Positions 19,022-49,726 of a stretch of DNA of 64,000 bases are shown one piece after another. The DNA is from Nitrospirae bacterium JdFR-86 (GTDB lineage Bacteria > Nitrospirota > Thermodesulfovibrionia > Thermodesulfovibrionales > JdFR-86), in contig MTOV01000004.1 in NCBI GenBank assembly GCA_002011815.1, positions 41,872 through 105,871 of the forward strand, read 5' to 3'. The notes beneath the pieces were generated by a model. It was given only the letters and a program-made list of their open reading frames with translations, ran no database searches and was not told the DNA's origin. A program made the translations under genes and the position numbers. Numbering within the stretch: position 1 is the first letter of the stretch; each line of letters opens with the position of its first letter.

Positions 19022-19115
19022 GGAGAGATGTCCGAGTGGCCGAAGGAGCACGATTGGAAATCGTGTGTGGGGTGTTAAAGCCCCACCGTGGGTTCAAATC
19101 CCACTCTCTCCGCCA
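19022..19115 (+). tRNA. tRNA-Ser (anticodon GGA), CCA encoded
   Basis: Acceptor GGAGAGA pairs with TCTCTCC. The anticodon stem is CACGA/TCGTG with loop TTGGAAA. There is a long variable arm (GTGGGG...CCCCAC), a T-arm GTGGG-TTCAAAT-CCCAC and 3' GCCA. Confidence 0.95.
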
Positions 19116-24782: not shown

Positions 24783-24913
24783 TCTGTTTTTTGCAGCCAG
24801 GCAATGGCCCTGCGCAACAGGAAGGTGTGAACCCCGCCAGGTCCGGAAGGAAGCAACGGTAAGCATTATTCCTGTGTGCCGCAGTAAGCCGTTGCCTGAC
24901 TGGAGAAAACAGA
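24783..24913 (+). ncRNA. ffs: Signal recognition particle RNA (4.5S-type)
   Basis: CCAGGTCCGGAAGGAAGCAACGGTAAGC matches the conserved SRP domain IV (GGAA tetraloop near 24845-24848). Long helix 5 pairs 24798-24808 with 24888-24898 and 24783-24790 with 24906-24913. The ends are approximate. Confidence 0.8.
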
Positions 24914-45156: not shown

Positions 45157-45618
45157 ATGAAGAAGAAGTTTAAATATTCAGGTGGAGCTCTAATCGGGTT
45201 TTTGCTCGGTTTTATTATAATTCATCCGTTTTCAATGGTCTTTCAGGATATGGTTCACCCTACGATTAAGCCTGATTTTAAAGCACTTCTCAATGTGTTT
45301 AATCCGCATCATCTTCCTATGGCTTTTTTCTTTGGTCTTCTGGGCGTAATATTCGGAGTCACCATTGTCTTTTATCTTACTGCCCTTACAAAGGAAAGAG
45401 AGCGGGTTAGACTTCTTGAGGAGTTGCTTCCTATCTGTGCTTATTGCAAGAAAATAAGAGATGACACAGGAAAAGAAAAAGGCAAAGGCGAATGGTATGA
45501 GATAGAGCAATATATCTCAAAAAAGACCAACACGGATTTTACACATGGTGTATGTCCTGACTGCTTCAAAAAATTAATAAAAGAACTCGAAGGAGAGGCA
45601 GAACCGCAGGGTTCGTAA
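45157..45618 (+). CDS. 2-TM membrane protein with C-terminal Cys4/His module (CxxCKKIR...W..IE.Y...FTHGxCPxC)
   Basis: Hydrophobic helices lie at about aa 8-30 and 55-77. The C-terminus reads LLPICAYCKKIRDDTGKEKGKGEWYEIEQYISKKTNTDFTHGVCPDCFKKL. Confidence 0.6.
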   Translation: MKKKFKYSGGALIGFLLGFIIIHPFSMVFQDMVHPTIKPDFKALLNVFNPHHLPMAFFFGLLGVIFGVTIVFYLTALTKERERVRLLEELLPICAYCKKIRDDTGKEKGKGEWYEIEQYISKKTNTDFTHGVCPDCFKKLIKELEGEAEPQGS

Positions 45619-45626
45619 TACAGTCT

Positions 45627-46793
45627 TTACGCCCTCTGTTTTGACAGCTCTTCATACATTCTTGCATTGTCTATTGCAATGCCGCAGACCTCGGCAAGTG
45701 AGGCTGCAAAGTGTATTTCCTCTTCGTTAAATTTCCGGTGCACACCTGTCAGCAGCCTGAGCACACCGAGCAGTCTTCCCCTGGCAACTATAGGCAAGGT
45801 AAGCATGCTTTTTATGCCTTCTTCAGCAGCCTCTTTCTGATAAATCACCCTTGGATCAGAAGATACATCATATATAGCCGTTGGTTTTAATTGAAGTGCC
45901 TCCCGGACATTAACCTCTGTATCCACTGGTCCACGGCTTAAGTATTTTTCACTAAGGCCATGAGCAGCAACCAGCAGAAGTTTATCTCCGGTCTCATTCA
46001 GAAGCCTTATGGTGGCAGCCTTAAGGTTCATAACCTCAGGCAGTTTCCTCACTATTAAATTGAGCACCTCTTCGAGCTTCAATGTAGAGCTTACAGCTTT
46101 GGTTACAGCTTCAAACACCCGGAGGTATTCTTTCTCTTTTGAGATTCTTGTCTTAAATATCCTTGCATTGTTGATTGCAATCGCTGCCTGCTCTGCAATT
46201 GCCGCTACAAAATTAAGGTCTTCCTTTGTGTATTTTACAGGCTCTGAAGTATACATCCTGAGAACACCTATTACGTTATTGTCTATTCTCAAAGGGACAG
46301 AAAGAATACTTCTTATGCCTTCTTTTATAGCCTCTTCCTTATACTTAGCCCCCTCATCCCTTGTTATGTCATAGACCGACACTGCCTTTCCTTTTAAGGC
46401 ATCCTCTATGCTTGCATCGCATTCTACAGGACCTTTGTTTACATAACTTTCACTCAGACCGTGAAAGGCGGCAACCTCGAGTTTATTGGTCTCCGTGTCC
46501 AGCAGTCTCAACATGCTCGCCTTTACGTTCATCACTTTAACGACGTTTTTAACGATGAGATTCAGAACCTCATCAAGCGAAAGGCTGGAACTAATCGCCT
46601 TGCAGATGTCCTGATAGCTTTCAAGATACACTTTCTTTTCAAAAATCTTCTCAGCGCACGTAGGACACATGCTGTGCGTGAAGACACCAAAGCCTATGTT
46701 CGTAAGATACTCCTCTATGTTTTCCCAGTTGTCTCTCTCGGTTCTTATCTTCTTGCACCATGAACAAATAGGTATAAGGCTCTTATCAGACAT
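45627..46793 (-). CDS. Tandem-GAF protein with N-terminal Cys4/His module (same module as the 45157 gene)
   Basis: The N-terminus is LIPICSWCKKIRTERDNWENIEEYLTNIGFGVFTHSMCPTCAEKI. Two GAF-like repeats follow (LDEVLNLIV...; LEEVLNLIV...). An SD is present. Confidence 0.7.
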   Translation of the reverse strand: MSDKSLIPICSWCKKIRTERDNWENIEEYLTNIGFGVFTHSMCPTCAEKIFEKKVYLESYQDICKAISSSLSLDEVLNLIVKNVVKVMNVKASMLRLLDTETNKLEVAAFHGLSESYVNKGPVECDASIEDALKGKAVSVYDITRDEGAKYKEEAIKEGIRSILSVPLRIDNNVIGVLRMYTSEPVKYTKEDLNFVAAIAEQAAIAINNARIFKTRISKEKEYLRVFEAVTKAVSSTLKLEEVLNLIVRKLPEVMNLKAATIRLLNETGDKLLLVAAHGLSEKYLSRGPVDTEVNVREALQLKPTAIYDVSSDPRVIYQKEAAEEGIKSMLTLPIVARGRLLGVLRLLTGVHRKFNEEEIHFAASLAEVCGIAIDNARMYEELSKQRA

Positions 46794-46919
46794 AATCCGT
46801 ACTCCACTCCCAAAAAACAGTTATCGTTAATTATACTAATACCAATTTAGCCAGCACAACTCAGAAGGGACCTGTAATCGCCTTCGGCAAAGGAACAGAA
46901 CACCTGCTGTTAAGTTAAG

Positions 46920-46949
46920 TTTACAGTATTTTCTTTAAAATGTTAAAAT
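46920..46949 (+). promoter_or_regulatory. Sigma70 promoter with extended -10 abutting the cooC-like start
   Basis: TTTACA (46920-46925), an 18-nt spacer and TGtTAAAAT (46941-46949). GTG 46958 lies 8 nt downstream. Confidence 0.5.
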
Positions 46950-46957
46950 TTTAAATT

Positions 46958-47740
46958 GTGAAAATAGCGGTCACAGGCAAAGGTGGTGTGGGAAAGACAA
47001 CAATCTCCGCCACATTAAGCCATATCTTTGCAGAGGAAGGGAAGCGGGTACTTGCTGTCGACGCTGACCCTGATGCAAACTTAGCCTCTGCATTCGGAAT
47101 CAGCAGGGAGAAAATCTCAGAGATTAAGCCTATAGCAGAGATGACAGAACTTATAGAGGAACGGACAGGAGCAAAACCCGGAACTTTAGGCGGGATATTC
47201 AGACTCAACCCGAAGGTCGACGACATACCAGAGGAATACGGATACAAGTTCGATGGCATAACCCTGCTTATAACAGGCAGGTCAAAGGAGGCGGCATCAG
47301 GCTGTTATTGTCCTGAAAACGTATTCCTCAGAAGGCTCCTCCGGCATCTTGTAGTCGAAAGGGACGAAGTAGTGATTATTGATATGGAGGCAGGCATCGA
47401 ACACCTGACAAGAGGCACGGCAGAAGCAGTTGACGCATTCGTTGTTGTCGTAGAACCCGGACAGAGAAGCATACAGACTGCGCTGACAGTTAAAGAAATG
47501 GCAAAAAGCCTCGGCGTTAAAAACGTCTTTGTAGCGGCAAACAAGGTCAGGGGCGAGCAGGATGTGAATTTCATAAAACAGGGCATCAAAGACATGATAT
47601 TTATCGGGGCGTTAAGTTATGATGCCTCCATACTTGAGGCTGACATGAAAGGCATCGCACCTTATGAAAACTCCCCTGCCCTTGTTAAAGAAGTTAAGGA
47701 GATGAAAAACAGCCTTGAACAGCACCTTGGAAACAGTTGA
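46958..47740 (+). CDS. cooC: CooC-type Ni-insertion ATPase (CO dehydrogenase maturation factor family)
   Basis: The P-loop MKIAVTGKGGVGKTT and the CooC-type CxC motif (SGCYCPEN) are present. The start codon is GTG. Confidence 0.8.
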   Translation: MKIAVTGKGGVGKTTISATLSHIFAEEGKRVLAVDADPDANLASAFGISREKISEIKPIAEMTELIEERTGAKPGTLGGIFRLNPKVDDIPEEYGYKFDGITLLITGRSKEAASGCYCPENVFLRRLLRHLVVERDEVVIIDMEAGIEHLTRGTAEAVDAFVVVVEPGQRSIQTALTVKEMAKSLGVKNVFVAANKVRGEQDVNFIKQGIKDMIFIGALSYDASILEADMKGIAPYENSPALVKEVKEMKNSLEQHLGNS

Positions 47741-48308
47741 TTTAAAGAGATCAATACGGAGCAATACCCTTAAAAAAAGGGACGCCATACCTCTGCCTGT
47801 AAGGCGGGTAAAGGACTCTGCTATAAAAAACAACTTATTCTCTCTAGCAAAATTTAAAGACGCAGGCAGGATACTCCTTTACGCATCGTTCAGGTCAGAG
47901 GTTGATACCCTAAGAATCATACAGGAGTCCCTGCAGATGGGGAAAAAGGTCATGCTTCCGAAAGTCAAAGACGACACGCTGGAAATATACGAGATTAACA
48001 GTATGGAGGAACTCGCACCCGGTTACATGGGAATCCCTGAGCCTTCTTCCTCCATTGAAAGAGGGATTAATGACGTCGATATGGTTATAATACCTGGTGC
48101 AGCTTTTGACACGAGTGGCTCAAGGCTCGGCTATGGAAAAGGATATTACGACAGACTGCTTTCAGGCGTAAAAGACAAACCACTCGTAGCACTGGCATAC
48201 GAGGAGCAAATTGTTGAGAACATCCCCCGTGAAACACACGATATAGGGGTTGATATTATAATAACCGACAAAAGGATTATAGACTGCCATGGACATAGAA
48301 AAAATTAA
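47715..48308 (+). CDS. 5-formyltetrahydrofolate cyclo-ligase
   Basis: Motifs are [15 protein letters not shown]..., [25 protein letters not shown]. The TTG start overlaps the cooC 3' end, so the exact start is uncertain. Confidence 0.8.
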
Positions 48309-48849
48309 AAAAGGTGTAAGACTCATACTTGAGGGCATAGGGGAAGACCCTGAACGAGCAGGGCTTAAGGACACCCCGAGACGTGTCGCCAAGATGTACG
48401 AAGAGATATTCTCAGGGCTTAGAACACCTGCTGAGGAACTGCTCAAACCTATAGAAGGAGAAACACATGATGAAATGATACTCCTTAAAGACATTCCATT
48501 TTACTCTGTGTGCGAGCACCATCTCCTTCCATTCATCGGAAGAGCGCATATTGCATACATTCCCTCAGGCAGCATTGTCGGGCTTAGCGAGCTTGCAAAA
48601 GTGCTTGAACATGTCGCCAAAAGACCTCAGGTTCAGGAAAGGCTCACATCACAGCTTGCCGACATGATAATGCAAAAACTCAAGCCAAAAGGCGCTATGG
48701 TGATAATAGACGCAGAACACCTGTGTATGAGCATGAGAGGGATTAAAAAACCCGGCTCAAGAACCGTTACATCAGCCGTACGTGGAATCTTCAGGACAAA
48801 AGCATCTACAAGAGAAGAGATGCTTGAACTCATAAAGAAAAAGATCTAA
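48289..48849 (+). CDS. folE: GTP cyclohydrolase I
   Basis: Motifs are [27 protein letters not shown] and QVQERLT. Confidence 0.95.
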
Positions 48850-48859
48850 AGGAGGAAAC

Positions 48860-49726
48860 ATGGCAGCTGAAATTATCGACGGTAAGAAAGTAGCAGCAGA
48901 CATCAAGGAGAAACTGAAAAAGGAAATCGAAGACCTGAAATCAAAAGGCATCACTCCCGGACTTGCAGTTGTGCTCGTAGGAGAAAACCCTGCATCCAAA
49001 AAATACGTGGCAAACAAGGAAAAGACATGCGAATCCTTGGGAATCAAGAGCCTGGGACACAAACTGCCTGAATCCACCACACAGGAAGAACTCCTGAAAC
49101 TCATCGACGACCTTAATGCAGACCCCAGTGTGCACGGCATACTCGTTCAGCTTCCTTTGCCGAAACACCTTAATGAAAAAGAGGTAATGCACCGTATTGC
49201 ACCTGAAAAAGACGTGGACGGCTTTGGACCTGACTCCCTCGGAAGGCTCGTGCTTGACGAGCCAGGCTTTATACCCTGCACCCCTCATGGTGCAATAAAG
49301 ATGCTTGAAGCATACGGAATTGACCCTAAAGGAAAAAACGCTGTTGTCGTAGGCAGAAGTATTATAGTAGGAAAACCCCTTGCACTGCTTCTGCTTAGAA
49401 AACACGCAACAGTTACTATATGCCACAGCAGAACAGCTAATCTCAAAGAGGAATGCCTTAAGGCAGACATCCTTTGCGTTGCCGTAGGCAAGGCAAAGAT
49501 GATTACAGGCGATATGGTAAAAGAAGGAGCCGCTGTCATAGACATCGGTATAAACGTTACACCTGAAGGCAAACTCGTGGGAGACGTGGATTTTGAAGCT
49601 GCAAAAGAGCGTGCAGGATACATAACCCCTGTCCCTGGTGGCGCAGGACCAATGACCATAGCAATGCTCATGTACAACACAGTGCTTGCTGCAAAGATGA
49701 AGGCAGGCATGACATTAGACTTTTAA
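48860..49726 (+). CDS. folD: Bifunctional methylenetetrahydrofolate dehydrogenase / methenyl-THF cyclohydrolase
   Basis: Motifs are IIDGKKVA, GLAVVLVGENPAS, GILVQLPLP, VVGRSIIVGKP and PVPGGAGPMTIAML. Confidence 0.95.
   Translation: MAAEIIDGKKVAADIKEKLKKEIEDLKSKGITPGLAVVLVGENPASKKYVANKEKTCESLGIKSLGHKLPESTTQEELLKLIDDLNADPSVHGILVQLPLPKHLNEKEVMHRIAPEKDVDGFGPDSLGRLVLDEPGFIPCTPHGAIKMLEAYGIDPKGKNAVVVGRSIIVGKPLALLLLRKHATVTICHSRTANLKEECLKADILCVAVGKAKMITGDMVKEGAAVIDIGINVTPEGKLVGDVDFEAAKERAGYITPVPGGAGPMTIAMLMYNTVLAAKMKAGMTLDF

What the first reader, a model, noticed from the sequence alone, without database searches (positions are those of the whole stretch)
45157..46793. Convergent gene pair sharing an uncharacterised Cys4(+His) module, with stop codons only 8 bp apart
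Both proteins carry the same roughly 45-55 aa module.
- P1 C-terminus: PICAYCKKIRDD-x11-WYEIEQYI-x9-FTHGVCPDCFKKL.
- P2 N-terminus: PICSWCKKIRTE-x3-WENIEEYL-x8-FTHSMCPTCAEKI.

Four Cys and one His are invariant, which suggests a Zn-ribbon-like metal site. In P1 the module follows two TM helices. In P2 it precedes two GAF domains. Neither protein has a recognisable output domain (no kinase, cyclase or HTH).

The genes converge with only 45619-45626 between the stops and no terminator there. From memory, this CxxCKKIR...FTHGxCPxC motif recurs at the termini of PAS/GAF sensor proteins in anaerobic bacteria, and I know of no functional study; I cannot verify that here.

Hypothesis: the module is a shared interaction or nucleic-acid-binding output. 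It would link a cytoplasmic GAF sensor to a membrane partner.
Basis: partly seen in the sequence, partly recalled or inferred. Interest (0 to 1): 0.6.

Follow-up and report, generated by a model that had tools for sequence, protein, structure and literature searches.

The report
Unnamed zinc-finger output module of sensors
Two neighbouring genes each carry a small, strongly conserved four-cysteine module that proves to be a very large, apparently unnamed family sitting where the output domain belongs in bacterial sensor proteins, but the two genes being side by side looks like coincidence rather than a partnership.

Summary
P1 (45157-45618 +, 153 aa, two TM helices) and P2 (45627-46793 -, 388 aa, two GAF domains) converge with 8 bp between their stops. 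Both carry the same ~50-aa module, C-x2-C-KKIR...W..IE.Y...F[TS]H[GS]xCPxC.

A profile built without either family finds only these two copies in the window (E 5.5e-26 and 2.7e-19). The Cys4+His pattern holds in 235 of 240 homologues.

The module matches no Pfam-A or NCBIfam model and no PDB sequence or fold, and I found no paper on it. Yet a profile recovers 25,110 cluster representatives across many phyla. It is joined only to sensor or relay domains (REC, PAS, GAF, MASE6, HAMP, dCache, Reg_prop), never to a known output among those seen, and a heptad coiled coil precedes it. AlphaFold gives a confident treble-clef-like fold.

Best reading: a Zn-stabilised, dimeric output module. Its target is unknown, and I think a shared cellular partner is likeliest.

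The proposed P1-P2 partnership is not supported. In three syntenic versions of this locus the gene facing P1 differs (P2, a methyltransferase-like gene, or PhzF). Three P2-orthologue contexts lack P1.

The module family deserves attention. The gene pair itself does not.

The parts
45157..45618 (+). P1 gene: 153-aa membrane protein made of two TM helices, a helical linker and a C-terminal Cys4His module
   Evidence: The ORF is. A 100%-identical protein, P0001, is in public data as 'hypothetical protein'. About 80 orthologue clusters of 143-167 aa always combine this TM region with the module.
45181..45246 (+). P1 TM helix 1 (about aa 9-30), containing invariant H23, P24 and S26 and near-invariant M27
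   Evidence: Hydropathy is. Conservation is in alignments A1 and A7.
45313..45390 (+). P1 TM helix 2 (about aa 53-78), preceded by invariant H52 and containing invariant P54, M55, A56, F59 and G60
   Evidence: Hydropathy is.
45376..45429 (+). P1 linker helix (aa 74-91, ...LTKERERVRLLEELL) leading into the module
   Evidence: Family-wide, the 21 residues before the first Cys show a heptad a/d hydrophobic pattern at -21, -17, -14/-13, -10, -7 and -4/-3 in 141 sequences. P1 fits this only partly: R81 lies at -13, where the consensus is Leu.
45430..45576 (+). P1 copy of the Cys4(His) module (aa 92-140): PICAYCKKIRDD-(GKEKGKGE insert)-WYEIEQYI-x9-FTHGVCPDCFKKL
   Evidence: BLASTP and independent HMM at 5.5e-26. 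The AF2 model has pLDDT 89 and shows knuckle, beta-hairpin, helix, then CPDC at a helix N-terminus.
45619..45626 (.). 8-bp spacer between the convergent stop codons
   Evidence: Sequence. No consensus terminator is found there.
45598..45644 (+). Modest RNA hairpin spanning both stop codons, with no T-tail
   Evidence: The 111-nt RNA fold of 45570-45680 that contains it gives z=-1.98 on the + strand and z=-0.89 on the - strand. It is weak and of uncertain meaning.
45627..46793 (-). P2 gene: 388-aa cytoplasmic protein made of an N-terminal Cys4His module followed by two GAF domains
   Evidence: ORF and Pfam. Orthologues of 387-398 aa are 73-81% identical, and ~550-aa three-GAF relatives are found in Thermodesulfovibrionales/Nitrospirota.
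46644..46772 (-). P2 copy of the module (aa 8-50): PICSWCKKIRTERDNWENIEEYLTNIGFGVFTHSMCPTCAEKI
   Evidence: BLASTP and independent HMM at 2.7e-19. In the full-length AF2 model the secondary-structure order matches the P1 module (E15-17, E23-25, H26-32, H44-50).
46173..46583 (-). P2 GAF domain 1 (aa 71-207)
   Evidence: Pfam GAF_2, GAF and GAF_3 all match.
45633..46076 (-). P2 GAF domain 2 (about aa 240-387), joined to GAF1 by a long helix (aa 190-235)
   Evidence: Pfam reports two stretches. Foldseek matches tandem-GAF modules of PDE5, PDE2, CyaB2 and phytochromes at E down to 4e-16.

Best explanation
P1 and P2 are two independent members of a very large, apparently unnamed family of bacterial signalling proteins. 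They share a ~50-aa Cys4(+His) module, predicted but not shown to bind zinc.

**Module anatomy**
- It starts with a CxxC knuckle, followed by a beta-hairpin carrying the conserved KKIR(D/E)(D/E) patch and then a short helix (W..IE.Y).
- A loop ending in F[TS]H[GS] comes next, and a second CPxC sits at the N-terminus of the last helix.
- This is a treble-clef-like arrangement.

**Position in proteins**
- In C-terminal copies a three-heptad coiled coil runs straight into the module (L..AL..VK.L.GLLPIC).
- The module is the only non-sensor part of thousands of one-component sensors and response regulators. Examples are PAS, GAF, dCache, MASE6 and Reg_prop sensors, and REC-module proteins.

**Proposed mechanism (inferred)**
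- The sensor or receiver changes the register or packing of the dimeric coiled coil.
- That repositions a pair of Zn-folded modules and switches their ability to bind a target encoded elsewhere in the genome.
- The module surface is nearly the same across paralogues and phyla, and its net charge is slightly negative. I therefore favour a shared cellular partner, most likely a protein (about 0.35-0.4), over paralogue-specific DNA operators (about 0.2-0.25).

**The two proteins here**
- P1 is a minimal membrane sensor. Its invariant His/Met residues (H23, H52, M55) are placed at the outer ends of its two TM helices if the positive-inside topology is right. It is possibly metal-responsive.
- P2 is a cytoplasmic tandem-GAF sensor, presumably ligand-binding.
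- Their convergent adjacency reflects a variable gene slot next to a positionally conserved P1. It is not a conserved partnership.
For: **Family size and spread**
- The profile of alignment A2 finds 25,110 cluster representatives at E<=1e-3 and 19,728 at E<=1e-10, out of 1.84 billion.
- More than 599 stretches were found in species genomes of many phyla.

**Output position**
- In 107 representatives and 62 genome-encoded members, the co-occurring Pfam families listed are all sensor or relay families. They are REC, PAS, GAF, MASE6, HAMP, Reg_prop/Y_Y_Y, dCache, PocR, CHASE, 4HB_MCP, DUF4118, HisKA_7TM, TPR and SBP.
- No HisKA/HATPase, GGDEF, EAL or HTH appears among them.
- Nine of the ten large members scanned (522-990 aa) show sensor domains only, for example Reg_prop-Y_Y_Y-module and dCache-PAS-module. 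The tenth has no Pfam hit at all.

**Two-component embedding**
- Upstream neighbours are enriched for REC (11), HATPase_c (6), HisKA (5) and Hpt (2). No other partner is conserved.

**Coiled coil**
- A heptad hydrophobic pattern was measured in 141 sequences.

**Fold**
- The AF2 model of the P1 module has pLDDT 89. The P2 module shows the same secondary-structure order.

**Paired modules**
- 45 of the top 150 representatives contain two module matches. The four inspected with two full motif copies (P0242, P0243, P0247, P0249) are covalent duplicates of a sensor-module unit.

**Conservation and charge**
- Invariant residues are listed.
- Mean net charge of the module is -0.85 to -2.1.

**Adjacency not conserved**

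**P1 sensor region**
- It is found only fused to the module.
- Metal-related neighbours occur in four independent contexts.
Against: **No direct evidence**
- There is no experimental evidence for metal binding, dimerisation or any target.
- The target is not identified by gene neighbourhood.

**Limits of the structural evidence**
- AF2 coordinates could not be inspected, so the ligand set is unresolved: Cys4, or Cys3His with one free residue.

**Limits of the census**
- It used the top-scoring representatives and 62 crudely called genes.
- Only the 25 most frequent Pfam families per set were listed, so rare fusions to known outputs cannot be excluded.

**Awkward cases**
- In P2 the module is N-terminal. 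In some relatives (P0204, P0240) it is internal, between PAS and GAF domains. That fits less neatly with a terminal output at the end of a coiled coil.

**Weak arguments**
- High surface conservation could reflect folding constraints of a tiny Zn domain rather than a shared partner.
- The slightly negative net charge is only weak evidence against nucleic-acid binding.
- InterPro, CDD and ECOD, and the subscription literature, could not be consulted, so 'unnamed' is provisional.
Confidence: 0.6

Rival explanations
1. First reader's model. P1 and P2 are a cognate pair, and their modules heterodimerise. This would tether the cytoplasmic GAF sensor to the membrane protein and couple their signals.
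For: - They are the only two module genes in 64 kb and they are immediately adjacent.
- One P1 orthologue (L003) has another module protein, a TM-PAS-PAS-module protein of 407 aa, convergent about 640 bp away.
- Natural two-module fusions suggest that modules act in pairs.
Against: - In syntenic loci the gene facing P1 is a methyltransferase-like gene (L083, L084) or PhzF (L093, L094), not P2.
- Five further P1-orthologue contexts and three P2-orthologue contexts have no second module gene within the 5-6 kb of flank held on each side.
- P2's closest orthologue is far more similar (81%) than P1's (63-65%), which argues against co-inheritance as a unit.
- In L003 a DsbA-like gene lies between the two module genes.
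- Only 7 of 82 sources held at that stage (81 loci plus the window) carried two ORFs matching the motif, and that count includes the window, its duplicate L001 and at least one doubtful match in L030.
- The inspected two-module fusions are duplicated like-with-like units, which supports homodimers rather than heteropairs.
Confidence: 0.1
2. The module is a zinc-finger DNA- or RNA-binding domain. The family would then be a new class of transcription or RNA regulators, with membrane-anchored members acting like ToxR/CadC or the Bacteroides hybrid two-component systems.
For: - By general knowledge of the field (Ulrich 2005 and Galperin's censuses, from memory), most one-component and response-regulator outputs bind DNA.
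- The KKIR basic patch next to the first knuckle is conserved.
- The knuckle plus hairpin resembles that of the rRNA-binding protein L36 locally (PICEYCKVIRRN, E=0.13, not significant).
- No partner gene is conserved in the neighbourhood, as expected if the target is a DNA site.
- A dimeric coiled coil would present two modules to a repeat.
- Small Cys-rich response-regulator outputs in archaea (HalOD2) have been predicted to bind DNA or RNA (PMC5847659).
Against: - The module's net charge is negative on average.
- Its surface is almost invariant across thousands of paralogues, whereas operator-specific factors usually diversify their recognition residues.
- There is no significant sequence or fold similarity to any nucleic-acid-binding structure.
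Confidence: 0.22
3. The module is an input rather than an output. It would be a thiol/zinc redox switch or an Fe-S or metal sensor, comparable to RsrA, Hsp33 or Fur-family sites, that adds a redox or metal signal to the attached sensor domains.
For: - There are five conserved potential ligands (Cys4 plus His), one more than a structural Zn site needs.
- The H-x2-C-x2-C arrangement recalls the Fur-family HHxHx2Cx2C motif. There the Cys pair is structural and the His residues are regulatory ligands (PMC11672702).
- A non-significant local match exists to the PerR C-terminal CxxC (E=0.26).
- The module is abundant in anaerobes.
- P1-family neighbours are often metal-related.
Against: - The proteins would then consist only of inputs with no output at all. 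This would include response regulators and 900-aa periplasmic-sensor receptors whose only cytoplasmic part is the module.
- The module is also common in aerobic phyla.
- A conserved coiled coil feeding into the module is typical of transmitter or output junctions.
Confidence: 0.12

Closest known systems
HalOD2 and TackOD1, Cys-rich candidate output domains of archaeal response regulators (Galperin et al. 2018, PMC5847659)
   Same: They are small, predicted Zn-binding CxxC-based domains. They were found by census as the only non-REC part of response regulators, and their function is unknown.
   Different: - HalOD2 has two CXXC motifs 20-25 residues apart and occurs in only a few halobacteria. 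TackOD1 has 11 Cys.
- Neither description mentions KKIR, W..IE.Y or H-x2-C-x2-C.
- The present family is bacterial, far larger and also attached to PAS, GAF and membrane sensors.
- No sequences of these domains were compared directly.
Treble-clef zinc fingers (structural class; examples such as the ClpX N-terminal Zn-binding domain are cited from memory)
   Same: The layout is predicted to be the same: a CxxC knuckle, a beta-hairpin, and the last two ligands at the N-terminus of a helix.
Bacteroides-type hybrid two-component systems (Reg_prop-Y_Y_Y-TM-HisKA-HATPase-REC-HTH_AraC; architecture from memory)
   Same: Some family members have the same periplasmic Reg_prop/Y_Y_Y sensor. That it is followed by a single TM helix was seen by eye in P0249 only.
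   Different: A coiled coil plus the ~50-aa module replaces the whole cytoplasmic kinase-receiver-HTH block.
Tandem-GAF regulatory modules of PDE2/5/6, cyanobacterial CyaB2 and phytochrome GAF-PHY
   Same: The body of P2 (two GAF domains joined by a long helix) matches them by Foldseek, with E from 4e-16 to 1e-12.
   Different: In those proteins the GAF pair controls a C-terminal catalytic domain. P2 has none, and its only other part is the N-terminal module.
Fur/PerR-family structural Zn(Cys4) site with adjacent His ligands (HHxHx2Cx2C plus a C-terminal Cx2C)
   Same: Two CxxC pairs probably form an S4 site, with a His just upstream of one pair (PMC11672702). There is a local, non-significant match to the PerR C-terminus.
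   Different: The fold context differs, there is no winged-helix domain and there is no significant homology.

Membership tests
Cys4(His) signalling module (unnamed; defined here by profiles A2 and the independent HMM) | Significant match to a profile built from family members other than the P1 and P2 subfamilies | tested here: met
   P1 scores 5.5e-26 and P2 scores 2.7e-19. There are no other hits in the six-frame window at E<=0.01.
Cys4(His) signalling module (unnamed) | Invariant P-[IM]-C-x2-C-K-K-I-R ... W ... H-x2-C-x2-C | tested here: met
   Both copies carry every invariant residue.
Cys4(His) signalling module (unnamed) | Heptad coiled coil immediately upstream (C-terminal type) | tested here: inconclusive
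   The family-wide pattern is clear. P1 keeps L77, V84, L87, L90 and L91 but has R81 at -13. P2 has the module at the N-terminus, so the feature does not apply; there a helix follows the module instead.
Cys4(His) signalling module (unnamed) | Binds one Zn(II) per module | not testable with these tools
   This needs metal analysis of purified protein.
GAF domain (Pfam PF13185/PF01590/PF13492) | Match above the Pfam gathering score | tested here: met
   P2 matches GAF_2 at 132 bits against a cut-off of 28.6, in two stretches.
Classical zinc ribbon | Both CxxC knuckles lie on beta-hairpins that form a three-stranded sheet | tested here: not met
   The second CPxC lies at the N-terminus of a helix in both AF2 models. 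Matches to Pfam zinc-ribbon models were below their cut-offs wherever a cut-off was shown. The zf-C4pol and Zn_ribbon_HMPTM matches in the census are listed without cut-offs.
ZAS anti-sigma factor domain (zf-HC2) | H-x3-C-x2-C motif in an all-helical anti-sigma domain | tested here: not met
   The spacing here is H-x2-C-x2-C, the fold contains a beta-hairpin and there is no Pfam hit.
LIM domain | C-x2-C-x16-23-H-x2-C-x2-C-x2-C-x16-21-C-x2-(C/H/D), forming two Zn sites | tested here: not met
   Only the first part of the pattern is present, the spacer is 27-35 residues and the second finger is absent. There is no Pfam LIM hit.
HNH / His-Me finger nuclease | Catalytic His at the end of beta-1 and a metal-binding Asn/His in the helix of a beta-beta-alpha motif | tested here: not met
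DksA/TraR C4 zinc finger | C-x2-C-x17-C-x2-C after a coiled coil, with a Pfam zf-dskA_traR match | tested here: not met
   The spacer between Cys pairs is 33-41 residues, and there is no Pfam hit.
Cognate two-gene signalling pair (conserved neighbours) | Adjacency of the two genes conserved in related genomes | tested here: not met
   Syntenic loci carry a different convergent gene. P2 orthologues lie elsewhere without P1.
Response-regulator / one-component output domain (functional class) | It is the sole non-sensor, non-receiver domain of the protein, and it transmits the signal to a target | tested here: inconclusive
   The architectural half is met. Transmission to a target cannot be tested here.

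The most novel reading that the evidence does not exclude
The module is a previously unrecognised major class of bacterial signalling output. It would be a dimeric, Zn-folded ~50-aa effector through which thousands of PAS, GAF, REC and membrane sensors in many phyla act on one shared cellular hub. Candidate hubs include RNA polymerase, the ribosome (the first knuckle and hairpin locally resemble L36) or a protease or adaptor. This would work much as many chemoreceptors converge on CheA/CheW.
Probability: 0.3. Interest if true: 0.8.

Novelty: new variant of a known kind. Interest (0 to 1): 0.55.

Why it matters
If the module is an output domain, then tens of thousands of sensor proteins and response regulators now labelled 'PAS domain protein', 'GAF domain protein', 'response regulator' or 'hypothetical' have a defined, testable effector end. 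A whole branch of signalling in Desulfobacterota, Nitrospirota, Acidobacteriota, Verrucomicrobiota, Planctomycetota, Spirochaetota and others also lacks a known target.

Finding that target would explain what these sensors control. The module is small, so biochemistry, structure determination and interaction screens are straightforward.

For annotation, a profile such as A2 could be turned into a domain model straight away.

The specific gene pair in this window, by contrast, does not appear to be a system of its own.

Tried and rejected
**Database look-ups for the module: nothing above threshold**
- Pfam-A and NCBIfam scans of P1, P2 and eight other module proteins gave only sub-threshold matches to assorted zinc fingers.
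- PDB sequence searches with a single sequence and with the profile gave nothing significant. The best matches were the L36 knuckle (E=0.13), 7yjw 'Membrane protein' (E=0.29, which did not recur with a second query), PerR (E=0.26) and EXOG (E about 1).

**Literature: nothing on this module**
They covered motif strings (CKKIR, HGICP and others), HXXCXXC variants, zinc-ribbon or CXXC response-regulator outputs, MASE6 and 7YJW.
- The only related text concerns the archaeal HalOD2 and TackOD1 domains.

**Searches for a partner or an alternative architecture**
- Neighbourhood analysis of 61 upstream and 60 downstream genes found only two-component partners.
- I tested whether P1's TM sensor occurs with other outputs. 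It does not, and is always fused to the module.
- The module is essentially absent from viral contigs, with 4 loci.

**Other points considered**
- A canonical intrinsic terminator at the junction is absent.
- Readings as LIM, ZAS, HNH, DksA or a classical zinc ribbon were each rejected on motif spacing or predicted topology (see the membership table).
- Chance similarity or low complexity was rejected by the independent-profile E-values.
Full report
**1. The observation**

The ORF list and sequence confirm the two genes. P1 runs 45157-45618 on the + strand (153 aa) and P2 runs 45627-46793 on the - strand (388 aa). Only 45619-45626 lies between the stop codons.

BLASTP aligns P1 residues 90-140 with P2 residues 6-50 at 39% identity, E=2e-11. 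To avoid circularity I built a profile from 156 module sequences that exclude both the P1 and P2 subfamilies. In the six-frame translation of the whole window it hits only these two ORFs, at 5.5e-26 and 2.7e-19. A profile that includes them finds nothing else either.

P2 has two GAF domains. P1 has two hydrophobic segments, about aa 9-30 and 53-78, and a +4 N-terminus, so the module should face the cytoplasm.

No consensus terminator lies at the junction. A modest hairpin spans both stops; the 111-nt fold around it gives z=-1.98, and it has no T-run.

**2. Conservation**

The pattern C..C-x(15-60)-H..C..C occurs in 119 of 120 proteins found with P1 and in 116 of 120 found with P2. In a 55-sequence module alignment these positions are invariant: P, C, C, K, W, H, C, C. 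I, K, I, R, E, Y, F and P are at least 90% conserved.

**3. Is it a known domain?**

- Neither Pfam-A (2025 copy) nor NCBIfam (2026) covers the module in P1, P2 or eight other carriers. Only sub-threshold matches to miscellaneous zinc fingers appear.
- PDB sequence searches with single sequences and with the profile give nothing significant.
- Ten literature searches found no description of it.
- The nearest published thing is the census of archaeal response regulators, which names small Cys-rich candidate outputs HalOD2 and TackOD1 (PMC5847659).
- I could not consult InterPro, CDD, ECOD or the subscription literature, so 'unnamed' is provisional.

**4. Size and spread of the family**

A profile search of 1.84 billion cluster representatives returns 25,110 proteins at E<=1e-3 and 19,728 at E<=1e-10. 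These come from Desulfobacterota, Nitrospirota, Acidobacteriota, Verrucomicrobiota, Planctomycetota, Gemmatimonadota, Bacteroidota, Spirochaetota, Cloacimonadota, Myxococcota and others. The module is thus not confined to anaerobes. It is almost absent from viral contigs.

**5. Architecture**

I scanned 107 representatives and 62 genome-encoded members against Pfam.

- The listed partner families are REC, PAS, GAF, MASE6, HAMP, Reg_prop/Y_Y_Y, dCache, PocR, CHASE, 4HB_MCP, DUF4118, HisKA_7TM, TPR and solute-binding domains.
- None of the listed families is a kinase core, cyclase, phosphodiesterase or HTH.
- Of ten large members (522-990 aa), nine contain sensor domains only and one has no Pfam hit. 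Examples are Reg_prop-Y_Y_Y-module, SBP-GAF-module, four PAS-module and dCache-PAS-module.
- In 141 sequences the 21 residues before the first Cys show a clean heptad pattern, hydrophobic at -21, -17, -14/-13, -10, -7 and -4/-3. This ends in the conserved L-x-G-L-L-P-I-C.
- 45 of the top 150 representatives carry two module matches. The four inspected with two full motif copies (P0242, P0243, P0247, P0249) are duplicated sensor-module units in one chain, which fits a functional dimer.
- Upstream neighbours of module genes are enriched only for two-component parts: REC 11, HATPase_c 6, HisKA 5, Hpt 2. Downstream neighbours show nothing conserved.

Together these results place the module in the output or transmitter position of one- and two-component proteins, with the target encoded elsewhere.

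**6. Structure**

AlphaFold2 on P1 aa 86-153 with the 55-sequence alignment gives pLDDT 89. The order of elements is:
- a CxxC knuckle;
- a beta-hairpin (I100-D102 and E112-Y114);
- a helix (I116-S123);
- a loop with H130;
- CPDC at the N-terminus of the last helix.

The full-length P2 model (pLDDT 80.5) shows the same order in its N-terminal module, followed by helices and two GAF domains joined by a 45-residue helix. The body of P2 matches tandem-GAF regulators such as PDE5, PDE2, CyaB2 and phytochromes, with E down to 4e-16.

**7. Are P1 and P2 partners?**

*P1 side*
- P1 keeps its position in relatives. The block aroF-hisC-pheA | P1 | x | cooC-like ATPase-5-FTHF cyclo-ligase-folE-folD-DUF5981-MTHFR recurs in L001 (this genome), L083, L084, L093 and L094.
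- Gene x, convergent with P1, differs between them. It is P2 here, a 232-234-aa methyltransferase-like protein in L083/L084, and PhzF plus an outer-membrane protein in L093/L094.
- In L093 the PhzF gene even overlaps the end of P1 by 6 nt, so tight convergence at this spot does not depend on the partner.
- Other P1-orthologue contexts (L002, L082, L086/L095, L096, L097) contain no second module gene. L093-L097 were judged from gene tables and sizes only, not by a motif scan.
- Only L003 has a second module gene. It is a TM-PAS-PAS-module protein, separated from P1 by a DsbA-like gene.

*P2 side*
- P2 orthologues at 75-81% identity lie in three unrelated contexts without P1.
- P2's nearest relatives are much closer (81%) than P1's (63-65%).

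I give it about 0.1.

**8. Mechanism**

*Shown*
- Conservation of the motif.
- The output-position architecture.
- The coiled-coil junction.
- A confident compact fold prediction.
- The lack of a conserved neighbour.

*Inferred*
- Zn binding.
- Dimerisation.
- A signal-dependent change in target binding.

*Nature of the target*
- The module surface is nearly invariant across paralogues and phyla, and its net charge is slightly negative (-0.85 to -2.1). This favours a common cellular partner over paralogue-specific operators.
- The conserved KKIR patch and the high prior that bacterial outputs bind DNA keep nucleic-acid binding alive, at about 0.22.
- An input role as a redox or metal switch would leave these proteins with no output, so I rate it at about 0.12.

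**9. P1 as a sensor (side result)**

- The P1 subfamily comprises about 80 clusters of 143-167 aa. Its 2-TM region is never found without the module.
- H23, P24, S26, H52, P54, M55, A56, F59 and G60 are invariant. If the positive-inside topology is right, these sit near the outer ends of the two TM helices.
- Orthologue neighbourhoods include:
  - MerR-YHS-YHS/HMBD P-type ATPase directly upstream, with CueP nearby (L082);
  - a YHS-domain oxidoreductase overlapping the stop codon (L002);
  - Met/Gly-rich secreted proteins on both sides in L095, and one downstream in L086. The upstream one in L095 is a weak Metal_resist match;
  - a Metal_resist-like gene upstream (L003, 26.7 bits, just under the cut-off).
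- This suggests, but does not show, an envelope metal (Cu/Ag/Zn) sensor. The window's own neighbourhood has no such genes.

**10. Verdict**

The finding is real. Its main value is that it points to a very large signalling module that appears to be unannotated. The convergent pairing and the 8-bp spacing appear incidental.

I class it as a new variant of a known kind: standard sensor architectures with an undescribed small Zn output domain. Interest is 0.55.

Noticed in passing
window 45181-45390 (P1 TM region); loci L082, L002, L003, L086, L095: The P1 subfamily has invariant H23, H52 and M55, plus P24, S26, P54 and near-invariant M27. These lie at the presumed outer ends of its two TM helices. 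Orthologues lie next to MerR-YHS-Cu-type P-type ATPase with CueP nearby, a YHS-oxidoreductase, Met/Gly-rich secreted proteins and Metal_resist-like genes. This suggests a minimal envelope metal sensor.
   Followed up: partly
window 45619-46950 compared with L083:5449-6147, L084:5463-6167 and L093:3841-5475: The slot between P1 and the cooC-like ATPase gene is variable in otherwise syntenic loci. It holds P2 here, a methyltransferase-like gene in L083/L084, and PhzF plus an OMP beta-barrel gene in L093/L094. This looks like a local hotspot of gene turnover.
   Followed up: yes
proteins P0241-P0285 (e.g. P0242, P0243, P0247, P0249): 45 of the 150 top-scoring representatives contain two module matches. 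The four inspected with two full motif copies (P0242, P0243, P0247, P0249) are tandem duplications of a whole [membrane or periplasmic sensor-coiled coil-module] unit in one polypeptide. These may be covalent dimers, or unsplit or fused gene calls.
   Followed up: partly
P0204 (aa 131-167) and P0240 (aa 142-178): In some relatives of P2 the module is internal, with the order PAS-module-GAF. The module can therefore sit between two sensor domains, which is awkward for a purely terminal output model.
   Followed up: no
module residues PIC..CK.IR (P1 aa 92-101); PDB 5myj chain B8: The first knuckle and hairpin resemble ribosomal protein L36 locally (PICEYCKVIRRN; profile E=0.13, not significant). 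A typical REC-type module (not the window's copies) gave weak, non-significant matches of its GYW..IE.Y helix to an EXOG segment (E about 1) and of its second knuckle to the PerR C-terminus (E=0.26).
   Followed up: partly
window 45598-45644: A hairpin spans both convergent stop codons on the + strand; the 111-nt fold of 45570-45680 that contains it gives z=-1.98. It has no T-tail. It might act as a weak bidirectional transcript-end structure.
   Followed up: partly
window 46958-49726 and L001:7802-12130: Downstream of P2 lies a cooC/MinD-like ATPase followed by 5-formyl-THF cyclo-ligase, folE and folD. The identical locus L001 shows that DUF5981 and MTHFR follow. This conserved C1/folate cluster may be tied to the Wood-Ljungdahl methyl branch in this Thermodesulfovibrionales-like genome.
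   Followed up: no
window 24801-24898 (+) and 19022-19115 (+): The window contains a bacterial small SRP RNA (75 bits) and a tRNA-Ser(GGA). These are ordinary features, recorded for completeness.
   Followed up: no
L086:5551-5928; L095:5500-6210 and L095:4463-4840: Secreted proteins made of MGPGMMGGYGGYG-type Met/Gly/Tyr repeats, with a C-terminal helical region, flank P1 orthologues. The repeat protein itself has no Pfam family; the other flanking protein in L095 is a weak Metal_resist match.
   Followed up: partly
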